Of a stretch of DNA of 64,000 nucleotides, positions 14,873 through 56,562 are shown one piece after another; position 1 is the stretch's first letter; each line of letters begins with the position of its first letter. The notes under the pieces are model-generated. The model was not told where the DNA came from. It did not search any database and saw only the letters and a program-made list of their open reading frames with translations. The stretch is from Candidatus Woesebacteria bacterium (lineage in GTDB: Bacteria; Patescibacteriota; Microgenomatia; UBA1400; UBA12028), in NCBI GenBank assembly GCA_018060955.1, contig JAGOVC010000001.1:5558-69557 (forward strand), read 5' to 3'. The translations under genes were made by a program, and so were the position numbers.

Positions 14873-15768
14873 AGAAACGAGTACGCCTATCGGTAGTCAT
14901 TGCAACTCATAACGAGGAAGAAAACTTACCGCTATCATTACCGCCCTTAGTGGGTTTTGCCGATGAGATTTTAATTGCTGATGGGGAGAGCACCGACAAC
15001 ACCGTCAAGATTGCAAAAAGTTTTGGGGCTACCGTTATCCCAATGACCAACAAACGGATGTTTCATCATAACAAGCAGGCTGCAGGAGATCAGGCTAGCG
15101 GAGAATGGATACTGTATCTAGACGCAGATGAGATCGTTACCGATGCATTAAAAGAAGAAATCCTACAGATTCTAGATGGGAACCATCCTTCCTTACAAGG
15201 AGTTGCGACTGCTGACTATTTACCCACGACGGTTCGAAAAGCGTACCTTGCTCATCTTCATAATCTAGAAGTACGTGATCAGAAAAAGTTTCAAACCTCA
15301 CAACGGATCACTGCATACTTCATTGCCCGCAAGAATTGGTTTTTGGGCGCATATTTGATGCATGCTGGTGTATTTCCTGACGGAGTAATCCGATTAGTAA
15401 AAAAGGGAACAGCAGTGTGGCCATGCAAAGATGTGCATGAGACGATGGATGTGCAGGGAGGAGTTGGCTGGCTCATTGAACCCATGTTGCATCAAGCTGA
15501 TCCAACTTTTTCTCGGTATTTGATGCGTGCAAATCGTTACACGAATCTGACTGCAGATCAACTGACCTCTATGCATGTTCCGATTAGTTTTTCTTCGTGG
15601 ATCTACTACCTAATTTGGAAGCCTCTCAAAATATTTGTCCTACTTTTCTTTCGGCACAAAGGTTTCAAGGATGGTTTTAGTGGGTTCGTGTGGGCACTGA
15701 TGAGCGGACTTCACTGGCCGATCGCCTTTTTAAAATATGTAGAGTCTTCATATACACGAGGGCATTAA
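14869..15768 (+). CDS. Family 2 glycosyltransferase; paralog set A.
   Basis: LSVVIATHNEEENL...ILIADGESTDNT...HKGFKDGFSGFVWALMSG. ATGA overlap with the Nudix gene stop. Confidence 0.8.
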   Translation: MKKRVRLSVVIATHNEEENLPLSLPPLVGFADEILIADGESTDNTVKIAKSFGATVIPMTNKRMFHHNKQAAGDQASGEWILYLDADEIVTDALKEEILQILDGNHPSLQGVATADYLPTTVRKAYLAHLHNLEVRDQKKFQTSQRITAYFIARKNWFLGAYLMHAGVFPDGVIRLVKKGTAVWPCKDVHETMDVQGGVGWLIEPMLHQADPTFSRYLMRANRYTNLTADQLTSMHVPISFSSWIYYLIWKPLKIFVLLFFRHKGFKDGFSGFVWALMSGLHWPIAFLKYVESSYTRGH

Positions 15769-17489
15769 CGTACCGGAACTGGCGATGGAACAGGACTTGC
15801 TAGTGTATAGACTCTAAAAGAATCTGTAGAATTTACCCTCTTAATTGTTGCGACACTTTCTAGTGGACCGGTCGTTGAACATTCACCACGATCCACAAGT
15901 AGTGAGTGTGGTGTCATCTGACTGAGGATTTCTTCGGAGGGACAATTGTTTTTTGTAAAGTGAACATTTCCATACTCCGTCAAGCGAATATTCTTTTGGA
16001 ACTGACCTGCAAGGGATGCATCAAAGGTGTTGGAGTAGAACAAATAATAGAGAGGTTTAGCATCCTGTGGTAAATAGATTTGATCAAAACGATCCTTATT
16101 CTCTATTACATAACGGGCTAGTGCAGTCCGATCATCCCCTCGATGTGCAGTTTGTGAGGAGGGGGAGTGAACGATCCATTGATGCCAGAAATACACACTT
16201 TCTATTCCTACCAGAACCAACAGCAACGTGCGAAACGGAATGCCTTTCCAACCAATAGTTGAGATTTTTGCATAGGCATACGTTGTGAGAAGAACGAAGA
16301 ATACTGACATTGTGACAGTCCGATGAACATTGGGAACATCATCAAGTGTCAGAGAGCTAGGGATTGGAGAAATTGCAAAAAGCAGCAATAAGAAAAGAAA
16401 GGTTTTGGACTCTGTTGACCAATTCAGTTTCGATTTTTGCAGATTTGGAAGGAACGTTACGGAGAGGAAGGCTATCACGATAATGATTAAGTAGGAGTAG
16501 TAGAGTAACCCACTGTCATCTAAGCGATATCTTCCTGGTAATCCCCCTTCAGAGAAGAGCATTGGAAACGAAAAATATGACACGTATTGGTGTAAAAATT
16601 CACGACTGTAACCAACAATCTTATTATGAAAGATTCGAGCGCTGAGTACGTTCATTTGTCCTTCTCCAACTGCTAGTCCATCCAATCGCCCTTGAACAGT
16701 GTGGTTGAAATAGAAGATAGAGGTTTGTTGGAATCTCCCTTGTCCCCAATAGGTTCTTGAAATCGCAAAAGTGGTTATGAAGAAACACAAGGCAATCAGT
16801 GATAGTGTCAGTCGTTGCCTTTTATCTGCACCAAAGAAAATACTTAAAAAGACGGTAAGTGGAGTAACGATTCGATAGCCTGGGTAGAGCACGTATGTTA
16901 GCGCCAGGAAAAGTACCGCAAGAAGGATCGCGTAGGTCGAAGGTTTTTTCTCGTGTATCCACTTTAATAAAAAGTAGACTCCAGTAAAGTACACAGTGGT
17001 TGCCAAAATGTTTTCCGCTGTAGATCGAGATAAGATGATATGCCAGGGTGTAATTGCGATCAGAGTTGCGGCTAAAAGCGAGATTTTTGAATCTTTAAAA
17101 ATGTACTGAGCTATTCGATAGACAGGAAATACGATAACCGCACCGATGAGTGCAATTGGGAATCGAACAGCGAAGGCAGAAACTCCAAAAATGAACGTAA
17201 AAAAACCAGAGATATACATTGGAATTACATTTGGGTAGTCTCCAAAGTTATCAAAAAAGAGCAGAGGCCATTTGTTTGCGTAGAGGTCTTTACCATTAAG
17301 TAAGATAAATCTGCCGACATACCCATTCATCATTTCATCTTCATGGAGGCCAAATGGGACCTGTTCTAAATGAAAGAGCCGAAGGAAAAGTGCAAGTGCA
17401 AAAATCAGAAACAGATGGAGAGCTGGGGATCGCCATAACGGCAGATGTAAAAATTTCATATGTAAGAATACTTTTATTGTACACGGCAT
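15765..17489 (-). CDS. GT39/GT83-type GT-C membrane glycosyltransferase; paralog 3.
   Basis: HLEQVPFGLHEDEMMNGYVGRF and FDNFGDYPN. There are many TM segments and a C-terminal soluble domain. The stop overlaps the convergent GT2 stop by 4 nt. An alternative start lies at 17459. Confidence 0.8.
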   Translation of the reverse strand: MPCTIKVFLHMKFLHLPLWRSPALHLFLIFALALFLRLFHLEQVPFGLHEDEMMNGYVGRFILLNGKDLYANKWPLLFFDNFGDYPNVIPMYISGFFTFIFGVSAFAVRFPIALIGAVIVFPVYRIAQYIFKDSKISLLAATLIAITPWHIILSRSTAENILATTVYFTGVYFLLKWIHEKKPSTYAILLAVLFLALTYVLYPGYRIVTPLTVFLSIFFGADKRQRLTLSLIALCFFITTFAISRTYWGQGRFQQTSIFYFNHTVQGRLDGLAVGEGQMNVLSARIFHNKIVGYSREFLHQYVSYFSFPMLFSEGGLPGRYRLDDSGLLYYSYLIIIVIAFLSVTFLPNLQKSKLNWSTESKTFLFLLLLFAISPIPSSLTLDDVPNVHRTVTMSVFFVLLTTYAYAKISTIGWKGIPFRTLLLVLVGIESVYFWHQWIVHSPSSQTAHRGDDRTALARYVIENKDRFDQIYLPQDAKPLYYLFYSNTFDASLAGQFQKNIRLTEYGNVHFTKNNCPSEEILSQMTPHSLLVDRGECSTTGPLESVATIKRVNSTDSFRVYTLASPVPSPVPVR

Positions 17490-17521
17490 TTTGTGAGAAT
17501 AAGGGATTGAATGTTTTTAGA

Positions 17522-18589
17522 ATGGTGAGTAGAGTACAGTCAATGAACATTCTCATCGATACCACTCCACTCTCAAACGGTAGCGCCATTCGAGGAATCG
17601 GTCGATATACCGCCGAACTCCTACGAGCTCTCATTAACAATCCTGCATCACATCGAATTTACACCCCGGACACAGTGGAGAATCAGGGGGTAGACATTGT
17701 TCACTATCCTTTCTTTGATCTGTTTTTCCCAACTCTGCCGATCGGCAAACGAGCCAGAACGATTGTAACTATTCATGATGTAATCCCATTGTTATTTCCC
17801 AAGCACTATCCAAGAGGAATTAAAGGAACGCTTAATTTCTGGAAACAAAAGTTTGCCCTTCGATCCGTTTCTCATATCATCACCGATTCGGAAAGCTCAA
17901 AGCGGGATATTGTGGATCATCTCCATGTGCGATCCGATAAGATCTCTGTGGTGTATCTGGCAGCATCTCCAGATATCAAAAAACCTTCTCAAGGCATTTT
18001 GGACTCTGTGCGAAAGAAATACAGTCTTCCTCGGAATTTTGCCCTGTTTGTAGGTGATATCAATTACAATAAAAATTTGCCGTTTTTACTCAATGTCATT
18101 TCAAAAATTCCCAAACTCACCCTCGTTCTCGTCGGGAGAGCCATGAATAATCAAGCAATACCTGAAGGAAAAGCAATTCACCATACGATAGCAAAACTTG
18201 GATTAGAGAAACGGGTACTGATAATAGATACCCTTGGAGGGGATTCCGTTGAAGAGTTATCGAGTATCTATTCATTGGCAAGTTTTTACATTCAACCATC
18301 CCTCTATGAAGGATTTGGGTTACCAATCTTAGAGGCGATGCAGTGTAAGACACCCATAGTTTGTTCTCGTGCTGGTAGTTTACCTGAAGTTGCAGGTGAA
18401 GCGGCCGTCTATTTCCATCCAATGGAAGTAGATGATTGTCGACAAGCGATAGAGAAGGTACTGCGGTATTCAGACAAACAGTTACAGTCGATGGTAAAAA
18501 AAGGAGTTGAACAAGCAGCACGGTTCTCTTGGGAGAAGACAGCCAAAGAAACGATAAAGGTATATGAAAAGGTTGGTAGTTCTGTTTGA
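17522..18589 (+). CDS. GT4-family glycosyltransferase.
   Basis: EGFGLPILEAMQCKTPIVCSRAGSLPEVAG. The ORF-track start at 17354 overlaps the convergent minus-strand gene. The ATG at 17522 (or 17543) resolves this. Confidence 0.8.
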   Translation: MVSRVQSMNILIDTTPLSNGSAIRGIGRYTAELLRALINNPASHRIYTPDTVENQGVDIVHYPFFDLFFPTLPIGKRARTIVTIHDVIPLLFPKHYPRGIKGTLNFWKQKFALRSVSHIITDSESSKRDIVDHLHVRSDKISVVYLAASPDIKKPSQGILDSVRKKYSLPRNFALFVGDINYNKNLPFLLNVISKIPKLTLVLVGRAMNNQAIPEGKAIHHTIAKLGLEKRVLIIDTLGGDSVEELSSIYSLASFYIQPSLYEGFGLPILEAMQCKTPIVCSRAGSLPEVAGEAAVYFHPMEVDDCRQAIEKVLRYSDKQLQSMVKKGVEQAARFSWEKTAKETIKVYEKVGSSV

Positions 18590-20646
18590 TGTTTCAATGG
18601 TTGTACAATAGTTCTATGTTTGGACTTTCTGATCCCAGTCTCTGGCTCTGGGGACTCTTGTACTTTATCTCCGTACTCATTGTGTTTATCGTCCCTGGAT
18701 GGTTACTTTTAGAGAGACTTGATCTGAGGCTCTCTGCTTGGCAGAACATTGTGGTAATCCCTGTCACCGGAATGATCCTGTGGGGTATTCAAGGCTACAT
18801 CTTTGGATATGCGCACTTGCGATTCTTAACATATGCCTATGTTGCAGTAACTCTGTTGGCAGTACTTATTCGTCACAGAGACATAAAGAAAGGATTTAGT
18901 TTTTTGTTGCGAGGCATTCGACGCATGGATTGGAAGCTAGGTATTCTCCTATTAAGTGGAACACTTATCCAAGTAATGCAAATGATAGGAAGCGGAGTTA
19001 CAGATAAAGCAGGAATGCACTTTTATCGAGTGCATGGCCAAGATGGCATTTTCCATTTAGGACTCATTTCGAGTATTGTCCGACAATTCCCACCGATTGA
19101 ACCTGGTTCAGCTCACACCTCAGTAGTTAATTACCATTACTGGTCAGATTTAATCCTTGCGGAACAGGCGCGGATTTTTAACATTCCGATTCATCATTTG
19201 TTTTTTCAATTTACGCCAATTCTAATTTCATTGTTAACTGGTCTGACTTTAATCGTCTTGTTAGCGACAGTATCGCAAGATCAGCCGCGAAGTTTTCGGA
19301 AAAACCTGGTTAACTTCGGATTGTTTTTCCTCTACTTTGGTTCCGACCTAGCGTATCTTTTTATGCAGTGGCTTCATCAAACTTGGGGTTTTTATACCTC
19401 GGCTATAGATAATGGTGCGACCCAGTTTCTAAACATGCCGCATGCAATGGCTAAATTAGTCTTCTTGATACTCTTTCTCTTACTAGTTGTGTGGAGAAGA
19501 ACGAAAGGTTGGAAACTTGGACTGCTGATAGCAGTCCTTGGTGGCGTGCTGTTCGGAATTAAAGTGTATTTCGGACTATTATTTGCAGTGGGGTTCTTGC
19601 TTGTTTGGCTTACTGATCTCGTGGATCTAATCGTGAAGATATATTTGAAGATCAATGTTCAATCTCTTGTGTCGAAAAAATCATTCTTGCTGCAGGCATT
19701 CTTGATTGGCTGTGTGATGTTGGTTATTTCATTATTCGTATACTTACCTCCCAATCGAGGATCTGGAGGGCTAGGATATTACCCATTGGAATGGCCGAAA
19801 CTATTCATGGCTGAAGAAAATTTAGATTGGAGAGACTGGCGATACAAACGAGCCATCGTTGAATACTTTAAAAATACGCCAAAGATTATGATGTACGATG
19901 GAATTGCGATCGTCGTGACACTACTTTGTATCCATGGAACTCGATTATTGGGTTTCAATTTGGGAAAGAAAACACGTAGTCTGTTAGGAAGGAAACTGTT
20001 AGTTGGATTTATTCTTATTCCTTGTGGACTCTTTACCTTCTTGGGTCTTTATACCTTGCAGAAAAGTGGATCCTTTAACGTGTTTAATTTCTTTGCATCG
20101 AGTTTGACACTACTCTCTATTACTGCCGCGATTTTACTTGCAGAGTGGTGGTCATCAAAATCCTACATCCTCAAAGGAGTTACTATCGTTATTATCCTTG
20201 CCACCATCCCTAGAATTGCGTATGAGTCATTTAAAATTGTAACCTCCTATCAAAATCAAACGGATGATACGGTCATTTCCAGAGAGGAGATAGATGCATT
20301 GTCCTTTATTAATAGGACAGCAAACAAGGATGCGATCATTCAGTCGCATTATGCGAATACCTTGGATATGAACACCCCGTATACTTCCTATTTTGCGAAC
20401 CGATTTAATTACATGGCTGGCCAAAAGGTGCTAGAGACACACGCTCAGGAGACTCAATCAAGATATCTTGAAGTTCAACGACTGTTCGGATCTCATAACC
20501 CCGCTGACTACAGGGAAGCTTTCGCGCGCTGGAATATTTCCTATTTGTATTTACGGAATCAGGATGCGCTCCCATTTGATCCGTCTCTTGCTAACCTCAC
20601 ACTGGTATATCAGAATACGGAAGCTAAAGTGTATCAAATCAGGTGA
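18589..20646 (+). CDS. Large polytopic membrane protein with a C-terminal extracytoplasmic domain; function unknown. A GT-C-like transferase, polymerase or ligase are all possible.
   Basis: About 685 aa with at least 12 hydrophobic segments. The start ATG overlaps the upstream TGA (TGATG). Confidence 0.75.
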   Translation: MFQWLYNSSMFGLSDPSLWLWGLLYFISVLIVFIVPGWLLLERLDLRLSAWQNIVVIPVTGMILWGIQGYIFGYAHLRFLTYAYVAVTLLAVLIRHRDIKKGFSFLLRGIRRMDWKLGILLLSGTLIQVMQMIGSGVTDKAGMHFYRVHGQDGIFHLGLISSIVRQFPPIEPGSAHTSVVNYHYWSDLILAEQARIFNIPIHHLFFQFTPILISLLTGLTLIVLLATVSQDQPRSFRKNLVNFGLFFLYFGSDLAYLFMQWLHQTWGFYTSAIDNGATQFLNMPHAMAKLVFLILFLLLVVWRRTKGWKLGLLIAVLGGVLFGIKVYFGLLFAVGFLLVWLTDLVDLIVKIYLKINVQSLVSKKSFLLQAFLIGCVMLVISLFVYLPPNRGSGGLGYYPLEWPKLFMAEENLDWRDWRYKRAIVEYFKNTPKIMMYDGIAIVVTLLCIHGTRLLGFNLGKKTRSLLGRKLLVGFILIPCGLFTFLGLYTLQKSGSFNVFNFFASSLTLLSITAAILLAEWWSSKSYILKGVTIVIILATIPRIAYESFKIVTSYQNQTDDTVISREEIDALSFINRTANKDAIIQSHYANTLDMNTPYTSYFANRFNYMAGQKVLETHAQETQSRYLEVQRLFGSHNPADYREAFARWNISYLYLRNQDALPFDPSLANLTLVYQNTEAKVYQIR

Positions 20647-20666
20647 AGTAAATTGAAAGGATTCCT

Positions 20667-21566
20667 ATGAATATTCTTGTCACTGGGGGTAGTGGGTTTT
20701 TAGGTTCGCATTTATGCCGTTCGCTTCAAGAACATGGTCACACGGTCAGAGTACTAGATCGTCACATTAATCCAGAGTTTGAAACCATCCAGGGTGATGT
20801 CGGTGATCAAGCAACCGTTTCCAAGGCGCTACAAGGGATTGAAGCTGTGTTTCATTTAGCATCCTCCATTGAAGCAGGTGAGTCCGTGTTAAAACCCTAT
20901 GAATACACGCAAAACAATGTACTCGGAACAGTAGTGCTCCTGGAAGAGATGCGAAAAACTGGAGTCAAACAATTTATCTTTTCCTCAAGTGCAGCCATCT
21001 ACGGTGAACCTCTTCGTGTGCCTATTTTTGAAGACGATCGAACGATGCCCATTAATCCCTATGGAATGACAAAACTCGCCATGGAAGGATTAGCGTCATC
21101 GTATTCATATTCACACGGATTTACCTGTGTGGCACTGCGTTACTTTAATCTCTATGGTCCAGGTGAAAACCATCAGCCTGAAACACATGCGATTCCAAGG
21201 TTTATCTCTCAAATTAGAAAAGGTGAAGAAGTTACTGTATGGGGTACCGGTGAACATCAGCGGGATTTCGTGTACATTAGTGATATTGTCTCTGCCCATT
21301 TGAAAGCGCTGTCGTTAGAGCAAGGGAAATATCATTACTTTAACTTGTCCGGAAAGAACGCGACGAAAGTAAGTGATGTCATCAAATTATTAGAGAAGCA
21401 TTTGAATACTCCCGCACGTATTAAAAATTTCCCTCCAAGACCTGGAGATCCATTACTACTTTTTGCAGATAGTTCAAAAGCAAAAGAACTGCTGCAATGG
21501 GAATCAGAAGTTTCTCTGGAGGATGGGATAAAAATTACTGTCGACTGGTTTTTACAACAGGCTTAG
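20667..21566 (+). CDS. NAD-dependent epimerase/dehydratase (extended SDR; UDP-glucose-4-epimerase-like).
   Basis: MNILVTGGSGFLGSHL Rossmann motif and a YGMTKLAMEG YxxxK catalytic motif. Confidence 0.8.
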   Translation: MNILVTGGSGFLGSHLCRSLQEHGHTVRVLDRHINPEFETIQGDVGDQATVSKALQGIEAVFHLASSIEAGESVLKPYEYTQNNVLGTVVLLEEMRKTGVKQFIFSSSAAIYGEPLRVPIFEDDRTMPINPYGMTKLAMEGLASSYSYSHGFTCVALRYFNLYGPGENHQPETHAIPRFISQIRKGEEVTVWGTGEHQRDFVYISDIVSAHLKALSLEQGKYHYFNLSGKNATKVSDVIKLLEKHLNTPARIKNFPPRPGDPLLLFADSSKAKELLQWESEVSLEDGIKITVDWFLQQA

Positions 21567-21624
21567 AGTTAGCTAACAAGAATAACTACTTGACAGCACT
21601 TGTTGTGACAGATTCAATGAAAGA

Positions 21625-21780
21625 ATGAAATCAGTAAATAATGCTTCCCAACGACGGTTTATTATGGGAATTGTTGCGTTATCGTTGTTTGTAGTAGTTG
21701 GGCTATGCGCATTGTTGGTACAGTCTGCCTTTACTCCCAGAAGCCTGGATAATCGAACCTACGCGACCTCAAACCGATAA
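21625..21780 (+). CDS. Unannotated small ORF (51 aa) predicted to encode a single-pass membrane peptide.
   Basis: ATG...TAA in the largest non-coding gap. The translation is MKSVNNASQRRFIMGIVALSLFVVVGLCALLVQSAFTPRSLDNRTYATSNR, with a positive N-terminus and a hydrophobic core. A TTGACA lies at 21589-21594 upstream. Confidence 0.3.
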   Translation: MKSVNNASQRRFIMGIVALSLFVVVGLCALLVQSAFTPRSLDNRTYATSNR

Positions 21781-21854
21781 GATTCATTGAAAGTTCCATT
21801 TCCCACACATGATAGGGTAGTGTCTCTTACATTGATGACGTATCATACTTCTTC

Positions 21855-23642
21855 ATGCAAATTTCCACATTACTAGCATTGGGACGAAAAATTGTACGAT
21901 CCTCCGTCCTACTTACTTTTATTGTGTTTTTGTGTGGGTTAGCATTTCGGATCTATCGCTACGATTTGTATCCATTACAGTTTGACCAAATACAAATCCT
22001 TACTCATGCAGCACAAATCAGAATGGGGGATTTGAATTTTGTCGGCCCGCGTACAGGACCGGTCGAAATGTTTACTGGTCCGTTTGTGTATTACCTCACA
22101 GCATTCTTATCTTTTTTTATTTCGACCCCTTGGACTGTGGTTGGTATGGCGGTCGTTCTCTATATTTTGACCTTCTGGGTGATTAGATCGTTGTTTGTGT
22201 TCTACCGAATTGATAAACGAATTTCATTTTTCTTCTTACTTTTTTATGCAGTCTCGCTGTATCAAGTAACGTTGGATCGAATCCCCTGGAATCCTAACTT
22301 AATGATGCTTGCATCCACACTTGTATTTGTACCCATGCGTCAAATTATCTCGCATAAAAACGTTCGAATCCTGGATGCAATCTTCCTAGCCTTAGGGGTT
22401 TTCATAGGATATCAAGCCCACTTTTCAGGCCTCTTTCTAATCCTTTTTGTTCTTTGCATTGGATTTCTTCCTGTCCGAAACAAGAAGTATGCGATTCTTG
22501 CTGGTGTCCTCGGAAGTGTAACGACGTTGTTTCCCACCTTTATTTTCGATCTAAAACATCAGTGGCTTAATTTACATGGAGTCATGGATGTCTTGAAGAA
22601 CAATCACGGTACAGTTCCGACAAAGGAATTTTTTCTACTGCCATTTATTCGAGATATATTTGTAAGTTTGGAAAACATCGGAAAATTCCTAATTCCTCAG
22701 ACTGAGCAGTATTTAGCGATCGCTGCTGGAATTATCGTTGTCCTTTGGACAATCCAGTATGCCAGGCATCATAAAAACAGAGAGACTGCGTGGTTTCCAT
22801 TATTGTGGTTTTGTAGTATTAATCTACTCTTTTTTCCCTATAAAGGACCCAAACCGGAATATTACTTTTTGATTCAGTTTCCAGCAATTTTGTGGATGGT
22901 TGCAACGATGCTTTCACACATTAGAATTCCCGTCTCAAAACTGCTCTTTGCTATCGTGCTTTCATTTAGCACGATTCATTTTATTGGACTAGTATCCACA
23001 CTCAATTCGCAAAAAGAATTAATGATAGGAAGCCAAGTTGAAGCATCGAAAGTCGTTCGAGAAAAACTGCGTGAAAATCCAGATCTGCACGTGGCAATTG
23101 ACATTCAAACATTAAATCGAGCAGGACTAAATTATTTACTAAAAGATGTCCCAGAAGTTCGTACGCAAGATGAAACGCTAAACGTCGTCCATTTAATCTA
23201 TCCTGCAAATGATCGGACACCAACGACAAAACGTTTTGGCAGCTTGGTCTATTGGGAAGACCCAAGGAGAAACTCTCAGGAGAAATACCTTCTAGTAGAC
23301 AATGTCGTCATTGGTTCACCTCCTTCCTTGGAATTGTTTCGTGACGAGTATCCATCCAAAGAGTTCGACATGGCATCATCCCAATACGTCATTTTTAGAG
23401 AAGGAGAAAAAGTAGGCAGACTACTGCTGTTAGTTGACGATATTGATAATATACGTCGAAAAGATTTCTTAAAGCAGTTTGAAGAGGAATGGGGAGAAAC
23501 GGTCAGTGATTGGCAGCCTGTAGACTACAAGGGAGGAAAAGTGTATCTTCAAGCAAAGAAAAAAACTGTGTTCTTGCTTCAATTATTAACCGATGATGAA
23601 GCTAGCAAAAAAGACTCTTTTCAACTAAAGCTGTATCCCTGA
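21855..23642 (+). CDS. Polytopic membrane protein, GT-C-like; member of the 'GDLxxxGPxxS' paralog family.
   Basis: 595 aa. The N-terminal loop AAQIRMGDLNFVGPRTGPVEMFTGPFVYY is shared with the genes at 26410 (minus strand) and 52783 (minus strand). Confidence 0.75.
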   Translation: MQISTLLALGRKIVRSSVLLTFIVFLCGLAFRIYRYDLYPLQFDQIQILTHAAQIRMGDLNFVGPRTGPVEMFTGPFVYYLTAFLSFFISTPWTVVGMAVVLYILTFWVIRSLFVFYRIDKRISFFFLLFYAVSLYQVTLDRIPWNPNLMMLASTLVFVPMRQIISHKNVRILDAIFLALGVFIGYQAHFSGLFLILFVLCIGFLPVRNKKYAILAGVLGSVTTLFPTFIFDLKHQWLNLHGVMDVLKNNHGTVPTKEFFLLPFIRDIFVSLENIGKFLIPQTEQYLAIAAGIIVVLWTIQYARHHKNRETAWFPLLWFCSINLLFFPYKGPKPEYYFLIQFPAILWMVATMLSHIRIPVSKLLFAIVLSFSTIHFIGLVSTLNSQKELMIGSQVEASKVVREKLRENPDLHVAIDIQTLNRAGLNYLLKDVPEVRTQDETLNVVHLIYPANDRTPTTKRFGSLVYWEDPRRNSQEKYLLVDNVVIGSPPSLELFRDEYPSKEFDMASSQYVIFREGEKVGRLLLLVDDIDNIRRKDFLKQFEEEWGETVSDWQPVDYKGGKVYLQAKKKTVFLLQLLTDDEASKKDSFQLKLYP

Positions 23643-23737
23643 TAAGAAATTGCAAATGAGTGCAGTCAATACTTTTGGTTTGCCCTTGTGTGCACTGGGA
23701 ATGCAAGGTATAACAAGAATCAGCAAACTGGTGTTTT

Positions 23738-24394
23738 ATGAACGTCTTTATCATCATTCCCGGCCATAACGAGCAAGAGTATGTGTCGACAGTGCTTTCT
23801 AAAGTGAAAGCCATTCATTCTCAGGTTATTTTTGTCGATGACGGTTCAACGGACAACACTGCAGAACTAGCAAAAGCCCACACAAAACACGTACTTAGTC
23901 ATGAAACAAACCTCGGTAAAGGTGCCGCTTTAAAAACTGGGTGTGAGTACGCATTTTCTACCCTCAATGCAGATGCCGTTATTTTCATGGATGCAGACGA
24001 TCAACACGATCCTAAAGAAATTCCAAAATTTATCGCTCAGCTTGAAAACTTCGATGTGGTTTTTGGTGTTCGAAAAATGGGTGCAAATATGCCGTTATCG
24101 CGGTTTTTAGGGAATAAATTCGCTTCAGTGTTACTCAACGTGCTATATGGTGGGTATATACCAGATATTCCCTCAGGGTATAAAGCACTGACAAGTAAAG
24201 GGTACCGAAAAGTAAAATGGAAGTCATCTGGCTATGAAGTCGAAACAGAAATTGCGATGCGAGTGACAAAGGAGCATGTTCCTTACGCCGTAATTGAAAT
24301 TGAAGCGATTTATCACGATACCGATAAGGGGATGACGCTCATCGATGGAATACATATCTGTCGCTGTTTGCTAGAATGGAAAGTAGGATTATGA
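23738..24394 (+). CDS. Short GT2 polyprenyl-phosphate sugar synthase-like enzyme (DPM1/GtrB-like catalytic domain with no long C-terminal TM region).
   Basis: VFIIIPGHNEQEYV...VIFVDDGSTDNT...LGKGAALKTGCEYAF...MDADDQHDP. Confidence 0.75.
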   Translation: MNVFIIIPGHNEQEYVSTVLSKVKAIHSQVIFVDDGSTDNTAELAKAHTKHVLSHETNLGKGAALKTGCEYAFSTLNADAVIFMDADDQHDPKEIPKFIAQLENFDVVFGVRKMGANMPLSRFLGNKFASVLLNVLYGGYIPDIPSGYKALTSKGYRKVKWKSSGYEVETEIAMRVTKEHVPYAVIEIEAIYHDTDKGMTLIDGIHICRCLLEWKVGL

Positions 24395-24729
24395 GATTAC
24401 TTCAGATTGTTTCAGTATTGTTTGGTCTATTCATGATGTATACCGTGCGTATTCATCATCGAAAACAGCATATTGATAGCATGGAATATGGGATTTGGAT
24501 GGGACTTTGGGGAGTTTTTATTTTCTTGGCAATCTTCCCACAAACGGTGAATGGTGTCGTTCAAACTCTCAACATTGCGAGGGTATTTGATCTCCTTGTT
24601 ATTATTTCCTTGATGATCGTAGTATTTCTTACGTTTCTCAATCGAATTGAGCAAAAGCGAATGGATAAAAAAATAGAGCAGCTGGTTCGAAAGAAAGCTA
24701 TCGATGACACTAAAAAAGCCGCTGTTTAG
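24391..24729 (+). CDS. DUF2304-like small membrane protein, often partnered with DPM1-like GT2 enzymes.
   Basis: About 112 aa with three hydrophobic segments and a basic C-terminal tail (KRMDKKIEQLVRKKAIDDTKKAAV). Starting at the ATG at 24391 gives an ATGA overlap. The ORF-track start is 24376. Confidence 0.6.
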   Translation: MRLLQIVSVLFGLFMMYTVRIHHRKQHIDSMEYGIWMGLWGVFIFLAIFPQTVNGVVQTLNIARVFDLLVIISLMIVVFLTFLNRIEQKRMDKKIEQLVRKKAIDDTKKAAV

Positions 24730-25480
24730 CATTATTACTCCCAGCTACAATCAAGGCGTTTTCATCTCAACAACTGTAGAGAGTGTTTTGCATCAGGACG
24801 TTAAAGATGTTGAGCACATCATCATGGATGGTGGTTCTAATGACAGTACTCTAGATGTCTTGAAATCATTTGGTAAACGAATTGTTGTAGAGAGTAAACC
24901 TGACAACGGGCAAGCCCACGCCATAAATAAAGGCATGAAGATAGCCAACGGTCAGATTCTGGCATATTTGAATTCCGATGATTACTATTTGCCAGGTGCA
25001 TTACAAACGGTAGAAGCGATCTTTGAGGAGAATCCAAACGTCCAATGGGTAGTAGGGGATGCACAAATCGTCGATGCAAATGGCAATGAGATCCAATCAT
25101 TTGTGCGTGCCTATAAATCACTGTTACGAAAAATCTATTTTCCAAATTTGCTTGGTATCTTGAATCCAATCCCGCAGCCATCGGTGTTTTTTAGAGCCAG
25201 TGCGGTGAAGAAAATCGGCCTATTTAACGAATCACTTTCCTACACGATGGACTATGAATATTGGTGGAGACTGCAAAATCAGTTTGGTTCCCCCTATTTC
25301 GTAAATACAGCACTCTCTGCATTTAGAATTCATCAGAACTCAAAAGGAGGTAGCAGCTACAGAAAGCAGTTTGATGAAGAACAGCTTGTCGCATCTCGAT
25401 TTACGTCCTCAAGCTTGCTGCTTCACTTGCATGCCCTTCATAACCGTTGTATTCTTGCTGCGTACTCTATCCTAAAATAA
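24704..25480 (+). CDS. Family 2 glycosyltransferase; paralog set C.
   Basis: FSIITPSYNQGVFISTTVESVLHQ...IIMDGGSNDST...YLNSDDYY. It is a paralog of the gene at 38576. Confidence 0.8.
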   Translation: MTLKKPLFSIITPSYNQGVFISTTVESVLHQDVKDVEHIIMDGGSNDSTLDVLKSFGKRIVVESKPDNGQAHAINKGMKIANGQILAYLNSDDYYLPGALQTVEAIFEENPNVQWVVGDAQIVDANGNEIQSFVRAYKSLLRKIYFPNLLGILNPIPQPSVFFRASAVKKIGLFNESLSYTMDYEYWWRLQNQFGSPYFVNTALSAFRIHQNSKGGSSYRKQFDEEQLVASRFTSSSLLLHLHALHNRCILAAYSILK

Positions 25481-25483
25481 TGT

Positions 25484-26431
25484 ATGAAATTGAATAAAAA
25501 GAATATTGTTGTTACTGGAGGCGCGGGGTTTTTAGGAACCAATGTGGTGGCAGAACTGATCAAGCATGGAGCTGATCCTAAGAAAATTGTTGTTCCTCGC
25601 TCAAAAGATTTTGATCTACGTGAAAAAGAGGTTTGTGCCAGGGTAGTGACAGGGATGGATATTGTTATCCATTTGGCAGCTAACGTCGGTGGAATTGGAT
25701 ATAACCAACAGAATCCAGGTACTCTCTTTTACGATAATCTGCTGATGGGTGTCCATTTAATGGAAGAGGCGCGAAAAGCAGGAGTATCAAAGTTTGTTGG
25801 GGTTGGGACGATCTGTGCCTATCCAAAACACACTCCAGTTCCATTTAAAGAAGAGGAACTTTGGAATGGATATCCGGAAGAAACAAATGCACCCTATGGT
25901 TTAGCCAAGAAGATGATGCTTGTTCAAGCTCAAGCCTATAGAGCACAGTATGGCTTTAATTCCATCTATTTACTTCCAGTGAATTTATACGGTCCACAAG
26001 ATAACTTTAATCCGAATTCAAGTCATGTAATACCAGCGCTCATTAAGAAATTTGTGGATGCTGTTGAGAAAAAAAGTCCGGAAGTGATTGTCTGGGGTAC
26101 CGGCAAACCAACCCGAGAGTTTTTATTTGTGCAGGATGCCGCTCGCGCAATCGTCTTGGCAACTGAGAAGTATGACAAAGCGGATCCCGTTAATATCGGT
26201 AGTTCTTTTGAAATTAGTATCTACGATTTGGCGCACCTCGTCGGAAAGTTAACACAGTTTCATGGTGAGATACGGTTCGATTCTTCAAAGCCTGATGGAC
26301 AACCGCGACGCAAACTGGATGTGACACGGGCAAAAAAAGAATTCGATTTTGAGTCAGAAATCAACTTCGAGGAGGGTTTGAAATCCACAATCGAATGGTA
26401 TCTTGAACATTACTCACGCTTGAGCAAATAG
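25484..26431 (+). CDS. fcl: GDP-L-fucose synthase-like (GDP-4-keto-6-deoxy-D-mannose 3,5-epimerase/4-reductase family). It could instead be a ColC-type GDP-L-colitose synthase.
   Basis: [92 protein letters not shown] and [16 protein letters not shown] are highly characteristic Fcl-family motifs. Confidence 0.8.
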
Positions 26432-27660
26432 AGATAATAGTCGGTGTTAATCTTCCAAGTCTTTACCACAGTATGTGGTGTAAATGTATGTATTTCATAG
26501 GCAGAATTTGTGTTGAAATCAGCAGTGGTGTTCACAACGAAGAGAAAATCGTTTGTGCGATAATCTCTCGTAAATCCAGATATATTGTTTACAGTTAATA
26601 AGTAATACTGCACACTTGCGGTCGTATCGTAAGTCGGAGAAGCTACTGCAAAATTATCAAGTTTTTCATTTCTAATGATCTCAAAAACAGCGTTTTCATG
26701 TGTGTAGTTCCAGTTTTTTATCATGCCAAAGGCATGCGATGGGGCAGGCAGATAGATTCTTAGCGATACTAGAAATAGTACAACCATAGATATGGTGAGT
26801 AGTCTCTTTGAGATCTTTGGCGCAAGCATCACCGACAGAGCCATGAGTAGCAGAAAGACTGATCCCATGAAGTAATATTGTGCAAATCCGCCTCCGCTTG
26901 TAGAAGTGAGTTCTGGTAAATGATGGGCAAAAGTCCAGATTGTCTGTAACATATAGAAATTCGTTCGAAATTCATTCAGAATCATTGGAGAAAATCCAAA
27001 AATGGCTCCAAGTACAACAAGGCCATATGCTTTTAATGGAGGCCGTTGTACTGCAATCAAGTAGATAAGAACCAGCAAGAAGAAGAGCACTGCTTGGTAG
27101 TGAAATAGGAGTAAGAATCCCAATACCACCCCAACCCCTAAATACGCAACTTTCCGACCGGTTTTGTGCATAATCCCCAACATTAAAATGAACAACGGTA
27201 GGAAGGCAAGTTGAAAATTCGGATTCCACAAAAACGAGGTAAAGTTAACAAAGAAGGGTAAGAATGCATACAAACTACACCCAATCATCGCTGCTTTTTC
27301 GTTTTTGAGAAAATATAGCCCAATACCTAGTGGTATCAACATTCCGACAGAAAAGAGTGTGAATGCATACGAGGACGCGATTGGCTCAAAACCACCGAGA
27401 AGCAAGAAAAAAAGATAAACGTAGAAAATGACGGAACTTTGAAAAATTACTTTTCCTTGGTACTCAAAAGATGTTCGAGGTCCCACAAGGGTAATCTTTT
27501 TTTGGGTCCATAGTTCATGAGCTCGAAGACCAAACACACCCTGATCCGTTGAGAAGTTCACTCTATTTGGATAGTGTAGTGATCGGATGAGTATTGCACC
27601 CAGACCGATGCATACAAAGATTAGAACTGTGAAGTTTAGTTTCAAAAACACTTTTCTCAT
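26410..27660 (-). CDS. Polytopic membrane protein, GT-C-like; 'GDLxxxGPxxS' paralog family.
   Basis: [38 protein letters not shown]. The 3' end overlaps the fcl stop by 22 nt, convergent. Confidence 0.75.
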
Positions 27661-27665
27661 ACGTA

Positions 27666-29327
27666 TTAGGGATGGAATACACCATTTAGTCTTTTAGATT
27701 CATCCAACGAATAGGAATAGTTTGATAGTACTGAAGGATCAACAACACAAGGAAATAATGCTACTCCACATCGATCATCCCCGTACACTGGAGTGGTATA
27801 GGGTAATGGCGCGTCTGGACGCTGCTGATATGTCGCTGCCTTGTTGTAAATCGTTTCTACTGGATAAATAAGCTGACTTTTTCGTAATGGAGGGGAAAAC
27901 TCTTTTACAGAGGCAAGAAGAGCAAGCGAAAACAAAATAATTTGTAAAAAATACATTCCAATTTTTGGAATTCTAACTATTCGTTGAAATTGTGACAGAA
28001 TTGCTGCAACAAATAGCGCCAAAAAAGATAGAACCAGCGGCCAAAGGAGTCGAAAATCCGGAGCTGTCTTGTAGGCTGCAATAGTAATTGCAACTTGAGT
28101 CACTAGAGCGATGGTTTCTCTGGACATGATCGTCGACTGTGCTTTTTTTCTCTTTACTACCACTACCAAAATGCAAAGAAGTAGTATTGCCACAATAAGA
28201 ATAATCCAAATTTCAGTTGGAATGGTACGGATAAACATGGAGCTAAACCATACAGTTTCCGAATGAATTGATGGTTGATTAGGATTGTGCCGAGCCCAGG
28301 TATATACAGTGTCTGTATACTCAGCTACTTGGACTGGAGAGAGTGCATTTTGAACTGGCATGCAGGTCTGTTTAATCGGAAACAAAAAACATCCTGATAC
28401 AACAAATGAATAGGCAGACCAGATAATCATTGGGAGTAGAGTAGCGATCCGCGTACGTGGACGAGAGAAAAATGACGGAAGTTGATTTGAAAATAGATGC
28501 GTTCGATACAGTGACTCCAGGATACAAATAAGAGCGAAGGGAAAAAAGAGAACCATGGATATTTTGGTTGTAATACCGAGAAAAAATGCGAGCATGATCA
28601 AAAGACGCCGCTGCTCTAAAAATCCATAGAGGAGCAAGCTGGTCCATATAAAGAGAACAAGTTCTGGGGCTAGGGTAGAGAGGAGAGAAGTCTTCAAAAC
28701 GATGAATAGGAAAGTCAAGCTGAAGAACAGAAACAGCTGACTAGTGGATACAAATTCTTCTTGGTTCTTTTGGGAGTATTTTTCAAAAAAAACAACTAAT
28801 CCAAACATTATAACAAAAAAGACTGAAGGCAAATTAAAACTAGATAGTGTAGGAAGAGATGCTTGCAGAGTTGAAAATACAAATGGAAGACTGGTGGAGG
28901 CCAATCGAATATGCAGTAACGCAAGTCCAGAAACGATAGGGGATTGTGTGATGTTGATAACCGCAGGGATATGGTAGAGAAGAGAGTCATACCAGGTTGT
29001 GGGGAAACTACCAACATAGGCGATAGCGGCTGCAAAACATGATAGCAGTAGCAGTTTTAGGCCATTTTTCTCAACTAGAATTCTCAGTGACGTTGGATTG
29101 AGTAAATGTCGTTGAGAATAAAATAAAATAGTTGCTGGTAGAAGTATGATAAGTCCACTGCTCAAACCTGTAATTGGAATGAAAAAGTTTACAAACAGGA
29201 CCACAGAAAAAAGGAGTCCAATCCCAAGTAGTAATCGCTCAGTTTTGGGTAGTGTAGAATCAACCCAGGTTCCCATCGAAATGGCCGATGCAACCAAGAG
29301 CATTGATAGTATCCAAAGTACTAGCAT
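27666..29327 (-). CDS. Polytopic membrane protein, function unknown; a candidate Wzy-like polymerase, ligase or GT-C.
   Basis: 553 aa, extremely hydrophobic with at least 12 helices. It sits in an operon with the gene at 26410. Confidence 0.7.
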   Translation of the reverse strand: MLVLWILSMLLVASAISMGTWVDSTLPKTERLLLGIGLLFSVVLFVNFFIPITGLSSGLIILLPATILFYSQRHLLNPTSLRILVEKNGLKLLLLSCFAAAIAYVGSFPTTWYDSLLYHIPAVINITQSPIVSGLALLHIRLASTSLPFVFSTLQASLPTLSSFNLPSVFFVIMFGLVVFFEKYSQKNQEEFVSTSQLFLFFSLTFLFIVLKTSLLSTLAPELVLFIWTSLLLYGFLEQRRLLIMLAFFLGITTKISMVLFFPFALICILESLYRTHLFSNQLPSFFSRPRTRIATLLPMIIWSAYSFVVSGCFLFPIKQTCMPVQNALSPVQVAEYTDTVYTWARHNPNQPSIHSETVWFSSMFIRTIPTEIWIILIVAILLLCILVVVVKRKKAQSTIMSRETIALVTQVAITIAAYKTAPDFRLLWPLVLSFLALFVAAILSQFQRIVRIPKIGMYFLQIILFSLALLASVKEFSPPLRKSQLIYPVETIYNKAATYQQRPDAPLPYTTPVYGDDRCGVALFPCVVDPSVLSNYSYSLDESKRLNGVFHP

Positions 29328-55210: not shown

Positions 55211-55256
55211 GATGTGAGTGATCATATCATTAATTAGATTGACGATGCACAGTGTT

Positions 55257-56216: not shown

Positions 56217-56220
56217 ATGT

Positions 56221-56562
56221 ATGTCTATTTTATTTGTGGGAATCTACGCTGTATTAAGTTCCATTGGCCTAGCGTTACTGCGACGTGAGTTTAGTGCTGT
56301 TGCCGGACAATCAATCTTAACTGTGCTTTTTCATCCATGGTTTTGGATGGGAGGATTTTTGTATGGGATAGGGTTTCTTATGTGGCTCTTTTTACTGTCC
56401 AAAAACGACCTCTCCTTTATCTTCCCCATCGCAGCAGGAAGTCTAGTAGTATCGACTATGCTCCTTGGGTCATTTTTTCTAAAAGAAACTATCCCACCAG
56501 TGCGTCTAGTTGCCGCTGGGTTTATCTTAATTGGAATCGTTTTGGCAAACCTGAAGAAATAA
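56221..56562 (+). CDS. Small four-TM DMT/SMR-like protein (EamA-type; ArnE/ArnF-like lipid-linked sugar flippase candidate).
   Basis: 113 aa with four hydrophobic helices, 4 nt downstream of the ArnC-like gene. Confidence 0.65.
   Translation: MSILFVGIYAVLSSIGLALLRREFSAVAGQSILTVLFHPWFWMGGFLYGIGFLMWLFLLSKNDLSFIFPIAAGSLVVSTMLLGSFFLKETIPPVRLVAAGFILIGIVLANLKK

What the first reader, a model, noticed from the sequence alone, without database searches (positions are those of the whole stretch)
23738..24729. Lipid-linked monosaccharide donor module 1: a short DPM1-like GT2 plus a DUF2304 membrane partner.
The GT2 at 23738-24394 has the DPM1/GtrB catalytic motifs (DDGSTDNT, DADDQHDP) but lacks the C-terminal TM anchor. 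It overlaps a small three-helix membrane protein with a basic tail whose organisation resembles DUF2304. That family is recurrently paired with anchor-less DPM1-like synthases. The pair lies directly downstream of a GT-C-like gene (21855-23642). This is the expected logic for making polyprenyl-P-sugar as the donor for GT-C transferases.
Basis: partly seen in the sequence, partly recalled or inferred. Interest (0 to 1): 0.55.

Follow-up and report, generated by a model that had tools for sequence, protein, structure and literature searches.

The report
Two-part lipid-linked sugar synthase
This is a gene pair from an uncultured Woesebacteria (candidate phyla radiation) genome: an anchor-less glycosyltransferase and its small DUF2304 membrane partner, a new example of the already characterised GacI/GacJ-type enzyme that loads a sugar onto a membrane lipid carrier for cell-surface glycosylation.

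Summary
23738-24394 encodes a 218-aa GT2 with no TM segment. The next gene is a true DUF2304 protein (PF10066, 64.5 bits against a cutoff of 25.5) with 3 TM helices and a charged tail. Its likely start is 24391, which gives a 4-nt ATGA overlap with the GT2 stop.

The pair is conserved. In 80 related loci from one-genome-per-species contigs, DUF2304 lies directly downstream in 73 of the 77 loci where this can be judged, and 50 share the same ATGA junction.

The upstream 595-aa gene is GT-C by predicted fold and by profile comparison, but it is a lineage-specific insert. Some GT-C-like gene lies within 6 kb in 47 of 64 bacterial loci. In DPANN archaea the pair sits directly after AglB/STT3 in 14 of 16 loci.

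This architecture is already published and biochemically characterised (GacI/GacJ, WpsA/WpsB, PpgS/Rv3632, EpaI/EpaJ), so this is a new member of a known kind.

One refinement: a second GT2 (24704-25480) is tightly coupled downstream, and in one relative it is fused to DUF2304. The lipid-linked sugar may therefore be extended before transfer rather than serving only as a monosaccharide donor.

The parts
23738..24394 (+). GT2a: a 218-aa GT-A/GT2 catalytic subunit with no TM segment, predicted to be a polyprenyl-phosphate sugar synthase. The DxDxQH motif is D85/D87/Q89/H90. R112 and R122 correspond to the lipid-phosphate-binding R117 and R131 of PfDPMS. The C-terminal helix 201-217 corresponds to interface helix IFH2.
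24391..24729 (+). DUF2304 membrane subunit (112 aa; an alternative upstream ATG at 24376 would give 117 aa). It has three TM helices and a conserved charged C-terminal helix (K94, E96, R100 invariant). It is predicted to anchor and activate GT2a, like GacJ, WpsB and Rv3632.
   Evidence: PF10066 64.5 bits against GA 25.5. Source-contig gene call of 112 aa. Topology and tail composition. Invariant columns. Directly downstream of GT2a in 73 of 80 loci. 1026 representative clusters in the family, almost all stand-alone proteins of about 110 aa.
24391..24394 (+). ATGA junction: the GT2a stop codon (TGA) overlaps the DUF2304 start codon (ATG). This arrangement is typical of translational coupling.
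   Evidence: Sequence read directly. The same 4-nt overlap occurs in 50 of 73 orthologous pairs, and 4 more have a 10-nt overlap.
24704..25480 (+). GT2b: a 258-aa soluble GT2 whose start overlaps the DUF2304 3' end by 26 nt. It is a candidate second glycosyltransferase that extends the lipid-linked sugar (the WpsC-like position).
   Evidence: Pfam PF00535 E=1e-24. Follows DUF2304 at -21 to +41 nt in 37 related loci. A natural DUF2304::GT2b fusion, P0196, is 50% identical (E 9e-78) and sits in the same gene context. The wpsA-wpsB-wpsC precedent is in PMC10821137.
21855..23642 (+). GT-C-fold membrane glycosyltransferase (595 aa) with a C-terminal beta-rich extracytoplasmic domain. It is a candidate consumer of the lipid-linked sugar and a lineage-specific insert between the GalE-like gene and GT2a.
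   Evidence: No Pfam hit. AF2 model pLDDT 80.7. Foldseek hits: ArnT 1.1e-4 (TM about 0.5), then PglB, EmbB, AftD, AftB, ALG6, Pmt4 and PimE. hhalign against the PMT_2 protein at 52783-54258: 99.8%, E 1.2e-27. Sequence relatives in only 2 of 80 loci.
20667..21566 (+). GalE-like UDP-hexose 4-epimerase (299 aa). In most bacterial relatives it is the gene directly upstream of GT2a, so it is the candidate supplier of the nucleotide-sugar donor (UDP-Gal or UDP-GalNAc; inferred).
   Evidence: NCBIfam GalE TIGR01179 228.5 bits, just below the 262.3 cutoff. The GalE-GT2a-DUF2304 order is the commonest arrangement.
25484..26431 (+). Fcl-like SDR (315 aa, GDP-L-fucose-synthase-like) at the end of the conserved block GT2a-DUF2304-GT2b-SDR. 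It probably supplies a 6-deoxyhexose donor for GT2b (inferred).
   Evidence: NCBIfam GDPFucSynFcl 278 bits, below the 500 cutoff. Present in 58 of 80 loci at a median 64% identity.

Best explanation
GT2a (23738-24394) and the DUF2304 protein (24391-24729) are translated from overlapping genes. They most likely assemble into a two-subunit, membrane-associated polyprenyl-phosphate glycosyltransferase of the GacI/GacJ (WpsA/WpsB, PpgS/Rv3632) type.

Proposed mechanism: the soluble GT-A subunit binds a nucleotide sugar through its DxDxQH-metal site. The three-helix partner and GT2a's own two hydrophobic interface helices hold it at the cytoplasmic face of the membrane. It transfers the sugar to the phosphate of undecaprenyl (polyprenyl) phosphate, giving polyprenyl-P-sugar. 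The donor is probably a UDP-hexose or UDP-HexNAc, possibly UDP-Gal or UDP-GalNAc from the conserved GalE-like neighbour.

That glycolipid then feeds extracytoplasmic glycosylation by GT-C enzymes, which are abundant in this locus. It may do so directly after flipping, or after extension by the coupled GT2b.

Shown here: the domain identities, the missing anchor, the conserved pairing and junction, the fold, and the GT-C context.

Inferred: complex formation, the lipid acceptor, the identity of the sugar, and the downstream fate.
For: Family identity: PF00535 and PF10066 both above gathering scores.

Catalytic and lipid-phosphate residues are conserved and invariant in the family: D85/D87/Q89/H90, R112, and R122 as R or K.

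The protein ends where the PfDPMS TM domain begins. PfDPMS lacking residues 230-352 is still active and membrane-bound, so the short form is catalytically plausible.

Pairing: DUF2304 lies downstream in 73 of 77 evaluable loci across Patescibacteria and DPANN archaea, with the ATGA overlap in 50 of 73.

[quoted passage not shown] WpsA has no TM segment, and WpsB has 3 TM helices plus a C-terminal helix that contacts WpsA.

Context: GT-C genes lie nearby in 47 of 64 bacterial loci, AglB/STT3 is directly upstream in 14 of 16 archaeal loci, and the window holds four PMT_2-type GT-C genes and two Wzx-type flippase genes.
Against: There is no biochemical evidence for this protein, and all equivalog cutoffs are missed by a wide margin (PpgS 98 against 370, AglJ 100 against 325). 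The sugar and even the acceptor therefore rest on analogy.

Two PfDPMS lipid-phosphate ligands are not conserved (S135 becomes N126, K178 becomes E167).

The hydrophobic moments of the putative interface helices are modest.

I could not co-fold the pair. No Wzx-like flippase lies within 6 kb of the pair in any of the 80 loci.
Confidence: 0.8

Rival explanations
1. The enzymology is the same, but the role differs. The polyprenyl-P-sugar is mainly a primer, not a monosaccharide donor. GT2b, and perhaps other cytoplasmic GTs, extend it to a lipid-monophosphate-linked oligosaccharide. That product is flipped and transferred en bloc by a GT-C enzyme, as in Lactococcus PSP synthesis (WpsA/B then WpsC) and in archaeal AglJ-initiated N-glycosylation. 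This refines the best explanation rather than excluding it.
For: GT2b overlaps the DUF2304 gene by 26 nt in the window and follows it at -21 to +41 nt in 37 related loci. A DUF2304::GT2b fusion sits in the same context. The gene order is identical to wpsA-wpsB-wpsC, where WpsC extends GlcNAc-P-C55. In archaeal loci the pair sits between AglB, which transfers oligosaccharides, and soluble GT4/GT9 genes. The best NCBIfam hit is AglJ. An Fcl-like sugar-nucleotide enzyme is conserved right after GT2b.
Against: GT2b is missing from about half of the loci, including most archaeal ones, while the pair persists. The GacI/J and PpgS/Rv3632 precedents are monosaccharide donors. The nearby PMT_2/ArnT-like GT-C enzymes typically use lipid-P-monosaccharides (established knowledge of the families). 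The fusion is seen on a single contig and could be a lost stop codon or an assembly error.
Confidence: 0.4
2. GT2a is a membrane-tethered GT that acts on a different membrane acceptor, such as a lipid-PP-linked glycan, a glycolipid, or a diacylglycerol or teichoic-acid-type anchor, rather than on polyprenyl phosphate. DUF2304 would then be only a tether.
For: GT2 is a very broad family, and every specific equivalog cutoff is missed. Two DPMS phosphate ligands differ.
Against: Full-length similarity is to lipid-monophosphate GTs (PfDPMS, ArnC, PpgS, AglJ), not to GT2s that act on lipid-PP-glycans. R112 and R122, the counterparts of the Dol-P phosphate ligands, are conserved. Every characterised DUF2304-partnered GT2 makes a polyprenyl-P-HexNAc.
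Confidence: 0.08
3. GT2a is a soluble GpgS/MpgS-like enzyme that makes a compatible-solute precursor, glycosylating 3-phosphoglycerate. The adjacent small membrane gene would be functionally unrelated.
Against: Sequence similarity to GpgS is weak and limited to the N-terminal nucleotide-binding half (PDB 7.5e-5 over residues 3-102; NCBIfam 35 bits over 2-100 against a cutoff of 262). The obligate, translationally coupled membrane partner is conserved across two domains of life. The genomic context is entirely surface glycosylation.
Confidence: 0.03
4. DUF2304 is not only an activator and anchor. It also helps translocate the newly made lipid-linked sugar across the membrane, as a detached counterpart of the PfDPMS TM domain that was recently proposed to flip Dol-P-Man.
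For: No Wzx-like gene lies within 6 kb of the pair in any of the 80 loci. The minimal archaeal operon is AglB-GT2a-DUF2304 with no obvious flippase. The PfDPMS TM domain is dispensable for catalysis and binds a flipped product.
Against: There is no sequence or structural link between DUF2304 and the PfDPMS TM domain or GtrA (one search finds nothing). In S. pyogenes and Lactococcus a separate Wzx flippase (GacK, WpsG) is assigned. The window has two Wzx-type genes and an EamA-like small transporter elsewhere. Flippases are often encoded at a distance.
Confidence: 0.08

Closest known systems
GacI/GacJ of Streptococcus pyogenes, with the homologous EpaI/EpaJ of Enterococcus faecalis and WpsA/WpsB of Lactococcus
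   Different: The lineage is different (Patescibacteria/Woesebacteria and DPANN archaea rather than Firmicutes). The sugar is unknown; the conserved GalE-like neighbour hints at a galacto-configured donor rather than GlcNAc. The acceptor glycan is unknown, and no rhamnan genes were identified. I could not compare sequences directly with GacI or WpsA because those sequences were not retrievable with these tools.
PpgS (Rv3631) / Rv3632 / Rv3779 of Mycobacterium tuberculosis
   Same: A short GT2 polyprenyl-P-GalNAc synthase is co-transcribed with a small DUF2304-type membrane protein that stimulates it, and its product is used by a GT-C enzyme. The NCBIfam PpgS model aligns over essentially the full length of GT2a (2-216 of 226; E 5e-28).
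   Different: The score is far below the equivalog cutoff (98 against 370 bits), so GT2a is not a PpgS orthologue. The target glycan, arabinogalactan, does not exist in this organism group.
Eukaryotic type-II dolichyl-phosphate mannose synthase (DPM1 with DPM2/DPM3)
   Same: The logic is the same: a catalytic GT2 subunit without its own TM anchor is held at the membrane by small membrane subunits (for the classification; DPM3 acting as the tether is from established knowledge).
   Different: DUF2304 has no detected homology to DPM2 or DPM3. GT2a fails the DPMS signature at two lipid-phosphate ligands (N126 in place of Ser, E167 in place of Lys) and has DADDQHDP rather than DADxQHPP.
TM-anchored polyprenyl-phosphate GT2s: PfDPMS (type III), GtrB, ArnC, AglJ
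   Same: They share the GT-A core, the DxDxQ metal site, the arginines for the lipid phosphate and the two interface helices. They are the best sequence and fold matches.
   Different: Those enzymes carry 2-4 C-terminal TM helices in the same polypeptide, whereas here the membrane part is a separate, unrelated DUF2304 gene. The window also encodes a classic anchored enzyme of this type at 55218-56216.

Membership tests
GacI/GacJ-type two-subunit polyprenyl-P-sugar synthase (WpsA/WpsB, EpaI/EpaJ, PpgS/Rv3632) | The catalytic subunit is a GT2/GT-A enzyme with a DxD(xQ) metal motif | tested here: met
   PF00535 E=8e-26. DADDQH at residues 85-90 is invariant in 26 relatives and aligns to PfDPMS 89-DADLQH-94. 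The WpsA equivalents are D96/D98/Q100.
GacI/GacJ-type two-subunit polyprenyl-P-sugar synthase (WpsA/WpsB, EpaI/EpaJ, PpgS/Rv3632) | The catalytic subunit has no transmembrane segment | tested here: met
   No hydrophobic 19-mer above threshold. The AF2 model is a compact GT-A fold that ends in one helix at 201-217. All relatives are about 218 aa. WpsA is described in the same way.
GacI/GacJ-type two-subunit polyprenyl-P-sugar synthase (WpsA/WpsB, EpaI/EpaJ, PpgS/Rv3632) | The gene immediately downstream encodes a DUF2304 (PF10066) protein with three TM helices | tested here: met
   PF10066 64.5 bits against GA 25.5. Three TM helices plus a charged tail. The pairing is conserved in 73 of 77 evaluable loci.
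GacI/GacJ-type two-subunit polyprenyl-P-sugar synthase (WpsA/WpsB, EpaI/EpaJ, PpgS/Rv3632) | The two proteins form a complex and the small subunit stimulates activity | not testable with these tools
   Only single-chain prediction was available. Indirect support comes from translational coupling (ATGA in 50 of 73 pairs), invariant residues in the DUF2304 C-terminal helix (K94, E96, R100), and invariant residues in GT2a 51-76, which is the region equivalent to the WpsA contact segment 58-87 if no indels are assumed.
GacI/GacJ-type two-subunit polyprenyl-P-sugar synthase (WpsA/WpsB, EpaI/EpaJ, PpgS/Rv3632) | The product is a polyprenyl-monophosphate sugar (GlcNAc or GalNAc in the characterised cases) | not testable with these tools
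   Inferred from homology only. The lipid-phosphate arginines R112 and R122 are conserved.
GacI/GacJ-type two-subunit polyprenyl-P-sugar synthase (WpsA/WpsB, EpaI/EpaJ, PpgS/Rv3632) | It operates with a GT-C transferase and a flippase encoded in the same locus | tested here: met
   A GT-C-fold gene lies directly upstream. PMT_2 GT-C genes are at 12715-14409, 15765-17489, 26410-27660 and 52783-54258. Wzx-type genes are at 2750-4252 and 46389-47771. No specific pairing of any of these with the synthase has been shown.
PpgS equivalog (NCBIfam NF058614, polyprenyl-phospho-N-acetylgalactosaminyl synthase) | Score at or above the curated equivalog cutoff of 370 bits | tested here: not met
   98 bits, E 5.1e-28, full-length alignment. 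GT2a is related to PpgS but is not an orthologue.
AglJ equivalog (TIGR04182) | Score at or above the 325-bit cutoff, with a full-length match that includes the C-terminal region | tested here: not met
   100 bits, and only model positions 1-211 of 293 are matched.
Type-III dolichyl-phosphate mannose synthase (PfDPMS-like) | The DADxQHPP motif, R117/R131/S135/K178, and a four-helix TM domain with a polar pocket (definition in PMC12992685) | tested here: not met
   The motif is DADDQHDP. The R117 and R131 equivalents are present, but S135 is N126 and K178 is E167. There is no TM domain.
Glucosyl-3-phosphoglycerate synthase (GpgS, NF010496) | Full-length sequence match at or above the 262-bit cutoff | tested here: not met
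GT-C glycosyltransferase superfamily (for the upstream gene 21855-23642) | A polytopic N-terminal TM module homologous to known GT-C enzymes, with a conserved acidic residue in the first extracytoplasmic loop | tested here: met
   Foldseek top hits are almost all GT-C enzymes (ArnT 1.1e-4). hhalign gives 99.8% against a PMT_2 protein. D44 is nearly invariant just after TM1. The catalytic role of D44 is inferred.

The most novel reading that the evidence does not exclude
DUF2304 may be more than an activator of one enzyme. It could be a small membrane scaffold that docks both the initiating lipid-phosphate glycosyltransferase (GT2a) and the next glycosyltransferase (GT2b), forming a minimal membrane-bound assembly line. 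Candidate-phyla-radiation bacteria and DPANN archaea would share this system through inter-domain transfer, and in DPANN it would sit directly after AglB as the initiating step of N-glycosylation. A still bolder version is that DUF2304 also assists flipping of the product.
Probability: 0.2. Interest if true: 0.5.

Novelty: new member of a known kind. Interest (0 to 1): 0.3.

Why it matters
The finding assigns a concrete, testable function to a very common gene pair in Patescibacteria and DPANN archaea, where surface glycosylation is almost unstudied. More than 7,700 GT2a relatives scored at E <= 1e-5, and DUF2304 has about 1,000 representative clusters. It points to where lipid-linked sugars enter the unusually GT-C-rich glycosylation loci of these episymbionts. 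The AglB-GT2a-DUF2304 operon offers a candidate initiating enzyme for DPANN N-glycosylation. The enzyme architecture and mechanism have been published and biochemically characterised since 2010-2023, so nothing here changes how the system is understood.

Tried and rejected
- **Promoter and terminator scan of 17000-27000:** promoter-like sites were fewer than in shuffles (11 against 24.9), so the scan gave no usable operon boundaries.
- **tRNA and Rfam scans of the window:** nothing found.
- **PDB sequence search with DUF2304:** no meaningful match, so there is no solved structure for the partner.
- **afdb50 fold search:** the library was unavailable, so I could not retrieve AlphaFold models of GacI, PpgS or WpsA for direct comparison.
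- **Direct sequence comparison with GacI/GacJ, WpsA/WpsB or Rv3631/Rv3632:** not possible. I used the NCBIfam PpgS model and Pfam PF10066 as proxies.
- **Hydrophobic-moment analysis of the putative interface helices:** the values were unremarkable (muH 0.15-0.31). I do not rely on amphipathicity, only on these helices being the most hydrophobic in the protein and aligning with IFH1 and IFH2.
- **TM686 (18586-20646) as the conserved GT-C of the block:** rejected, because hhalign probabilities against the GT-C profiles were below 4%. Its profile contains only 4 homologues, so this negative result is weak.
- **GpgS-like soluble enzyme:** considered because of the fold scores and rejected on sequence coverage and context.
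Full report
**Observation.** The two ORFs are present as described. The first (23738-24394, 218 aa) carries VDDGSTDNT and DADDQHDP, matches Pfam Glycos_transf_2 (E=8e-26) and has no TM-grade hydrophobic segment. The second matches PF10066 DUF2304 across almost the whole model (64.5 bits, gathering cutoff 25.5). It has three hydrophobic helices and a 27-residue tail with 9 K/R and 5 D/E. The mechanical ORF begins at 24376. An in-frame ATG at 24391 overlaps the GT2 stop as ATGA and is the start chosen by the gene caller on the source contig, giving 112 aa.

**Source organism.** The source is NCBI assembly GCA_020049755.1, contig JAHZTO010000492.1. The neighbouring protein is deposited as a hypothetical protein of Candidatus Woesebacteria, which belongs to the Patescibacteria/Microgenomates group.

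**Is the pair conserved?** GT2a has thousands of relatives: 7,789 scored at E<=1e-5, and the best 120 are almost all 214-246 aa. An alignment of 26 of them shows no C-terminal extension and 38 invariant residues. I scanned one genome per species with this alignment and obtained 80 loci at 41-94% identity. An HMM built from DUF2304 homologues finds a DUF2304 gene immediately downstream on the same strand in 73 of them.

The seven exceptions break down as follows:
- In three (L004, L016, L040) the contig ends at the GT2.
- In one (L017) an AbiEii-containing insertion follows the GT2 and the contig ends soon after. The same ~200-aa upstream ORF of that insertion sits between GT2a and DUF2304 in L020 and L025.
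- In two (L051, L057) GT2a is followed directly by a polytopic membrane protein instead of DUF2304.

The 4-nt ATGA overlap occurs in 50 of 73 pairs, and 4 more have a 10-nt overlap.

**What is GT2a?** The best NCBIfam hits are AglJ (1.2e-28) and PpgS (5.1e-28). The PpgS match spans 2-216 of a 226-position model, so PpgS has the same short architecture, but both scores are far below the equivalog cutoffs. The best matches among solved structures are ArnC (5.9e-12) and Pyrococcus DPMS (9e-12, aligned over residues 1-215), followed by GtrB.

I mapped the PfDPMS functional residues (PMC5526996) through the alignment:
- D89/D91/Q93/H94 correspond to D85/D87/Q89/H90.
- R117 corresponds to R112 and R131 to R122.
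- The gate residue F177 corresponds to Y166.
- S135 is replaced by N126 and K178 by E167.

GT2a ends exactly at the end of interface helix IFH2, where the PfDPMS TM domain starts. A PfDPMS variant lacking residues 230-352 is still membrane-targeted and active.

**What is the partner?** DUF2304 is the family of GacJ. The S. pyogenes work shows that GacJ forms a stable complex with GacI, a GlcNAc-P-undecaprenol synthase, and stimulates it. It also reports that the M. tuberculosis homologue Rv3632 stimulates PpgS, and that DUF2304 is fused to GacI homologues in some Deltaproteobacteria. EpaI/EpaJ and the lactococcal pair have the same organisation.

The lactococcal study states that WpsA has no TM segment. 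WpsB has three TM helices plus a long C-terminal helix that contacts WpsA residues 58-87 in an AF2 model, and a WpsB-WpsA fusion is active. In the present family the DUF2304 tail has invariant K94, E96 and R100. The GT2a segment equivalent to the WpsA contact region (about 47-76) is the most conserved part of the protein. This fits the same interface but does not demonstrate it.

A profile search of 1.84 billion representatives finds 1,026 DUF2304 clusters at E<=1e-3, nearly all stand-alone proteins of about 110 aa. No solved structure exists.

**GT-C context.** The 595-aa upstream gene has no Pfam match even at E<=1. Its family is small, with 19 strong homologues. Its AF2 model (pLDDT 80.7) hits almost only GT-C enzymes: ArnT first (E 1.1e-4, TM about 0.5 over 577 columns), then PglB, EmbB, AftD, AftB, ALG6, Pmt4 and PimE. 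Its profile aligns to the window's PMT_2 protein at 52783-54258 with 99.8% probability (E 1.2e-27, 335 columns). 'GT-C-like' is therefore supported.

That gene has sequence relatives in only 2 of the 80 loci, so it is an insertion between the GalE-like gene and GT2a.

The recurrent bacterial block is GT2(299)-GT4-polytopic protein-GalE-like-GT2a-DUF2304-GT2b-Fcl-like SDR. The polytopic protein in many relatives (o1057-like) is itself GT-C-like (96.4%, E 1e-9). A GT-C-like homologue lies within 6 kb in 47 of 64 bacterial loci.

In the 16 loci labelled as DPANN archaea only the pair is shared with the window. In 14 of those 16, an STT3/AglB oligosaccharyltransferase lies directly upstream on the same strand, and soluble GT4/GT9 genes follow in the two loci where the downstream gene was checked. 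The archaeal GT2a sequences form one clade.

**A refinement.** GT2b (24704-25480) overlaps the DUF2304 gene by 26 nt and follows DUF2304 at -21 to +41 nt in 37 related loci. One representative protein, P0196, is a DUF2304::GT2b fusion. It is 50% identical to GT2b (E 9e-78) and lies in the same gene context, GT2a - fusion - SDR.

This matches the wpsA-wpsB-wpsC order, in which WpsC extends GlcNAc-P-C55 before flipping. It also matches the archaeal logic in which an AglJ-type enzyme primes a Dol-P-linked glycan. The product of the pair may therefore be a primer as well as, or instead of, a monosaccharide donor. The fusion is a single observation and could be an artefact.

**Sugar identity.** This is not determined. 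The GalE-like gene (228.5 bits against a cutoff of 262.3) is the commonest immediate upstream neighbour. That hints at UDP-Gal or UDP-GalNAc as the donor, which is also the donor of PpgS. This is inference only.

**Verdict.** The architecture is that of the published GacI/GacJ, WpsA/WpsB and PpgS/Rv3632 systems, so this is a new member of a known kind in a lineage where it has not been discussed. A full-text search for DUF2304 returned three papers, all on Gram-positive cocci. Complex formation, the lipid acceptor, the sugar and the downstream fate are inferred. Interest is modest at 0.3.

Noticed in passing
L048, L054, L056, L061, L062, L064, L066-L069, L072, L073, L076, L078 (for example L064:2483-7015): In 14 of the 16 DPANN-archaeal loci, the GT2a-DUF2304 pair lies directly downstream of an STT3/AglB oligosaccharyltransferase on the same strand (gaps of -79 to +117 nt). 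In L064 and L076, where the next gene was checked, a soluble GT9 or GT4 follows. The archaeal GT2a sequences form one clade at a median 42% identity to the bacterial ones. This suggests a single inter-domain transfer and a candidate initiating enzyme for DPANN N-glycosylation.
   Followed up: partly
L082:2944-4092 (protein P0196); compare window 24391-25480: A 382-aa protein fuses DUF2304 (residues 1-108) to a GT2b-type glycosyltransferase that is 50% identical to window 24704-25480. It sits in the same context, GT2a - fusion - SDR. It is seen on a single Logan contig, so it could be a true fusion or a lost stop codon.
   Followed up: partly
L017:6695-7751, L020:6696-7169, L025:5007-5606: A ~200-aa ORF with no Pfam hit is inserted between GT2a and DUF2304 in L020 and L025. 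In L017 it follows GT2a and is itself followed by an AbiEii-type nucleotidyltransferase toxin (PF08843, E 1e-14). This looks like a toxin-antitoxin cassette that landed in the coupling junction and partly decayed.
   Followed up: partly
L051:6669-7847, L057:6590-7868: In two relatives GT2a is followed, with overlap, by an ~390-aa protein with 8 TM helices and no Pfam hit (motif WGNFDGVVFM) instead of DUF2304. In L057 that gene appears fragmented. It may be a direct GT2-to-membrane-transferase coupling that replaces the small partner.
   Followed up: partly
window 55218-56562: This is a second lipid-sugar module of the classical type. A 332-aa GT2 with C-terminal TM helices (PgfS-like 249 bits, ArnC-like 154 bits) is followed by a 113-aa protein with 4 TM helices and weak EamA/TMEM234 similarity, which is a possible small flippase.
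   Followed up: partly
window 1057-2745, 10329-11867, 12715-14409, 15765-17489, 21855-23642, 26410-27660, 52783-54258: The window holds at least seven GT-C-like genes, identified by Pfam PMT_2 or by profile comparison, together with many GT2 and GT4 genes and two Wzx-type flippases (2750-4252, 46389-47771). That is an unusually dense surface-glycosylation island for a small-genome organism.
   Followed up: partly
window 18586-20646, 27666-29327, 56573-58384: These are large polytopic membrane proteins (686, 553 and 603 aa, 11-12 TM helices) with no Pfam match in my scans and no profile similarity to the GT-C families in the window. The source-contig annotation lists DUF8201 for the 27666-29327 product. 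Their function is unknown.
   Followed up: partly
L002 and many other loci (CAZ... 'binchicken' records): Contigs labelled 'uncultured Pseudomonadales', 'Gammaproteobacteria' or 'Methanosarcinales archaeon' carry this Patescibacteria/DPANN-type locus. L002 is 94% identical to the window's GT2a and has the same gene order. These organism labels look like placeholders or errors.
   Followed up: no
window 21625-21780: A 51-aa ORF with one hydrophobic helix lies in the 288-nt gap between the GalE-like gene and the GT-C-like gene. I did not check whether it is conserved.
   Followed up: no
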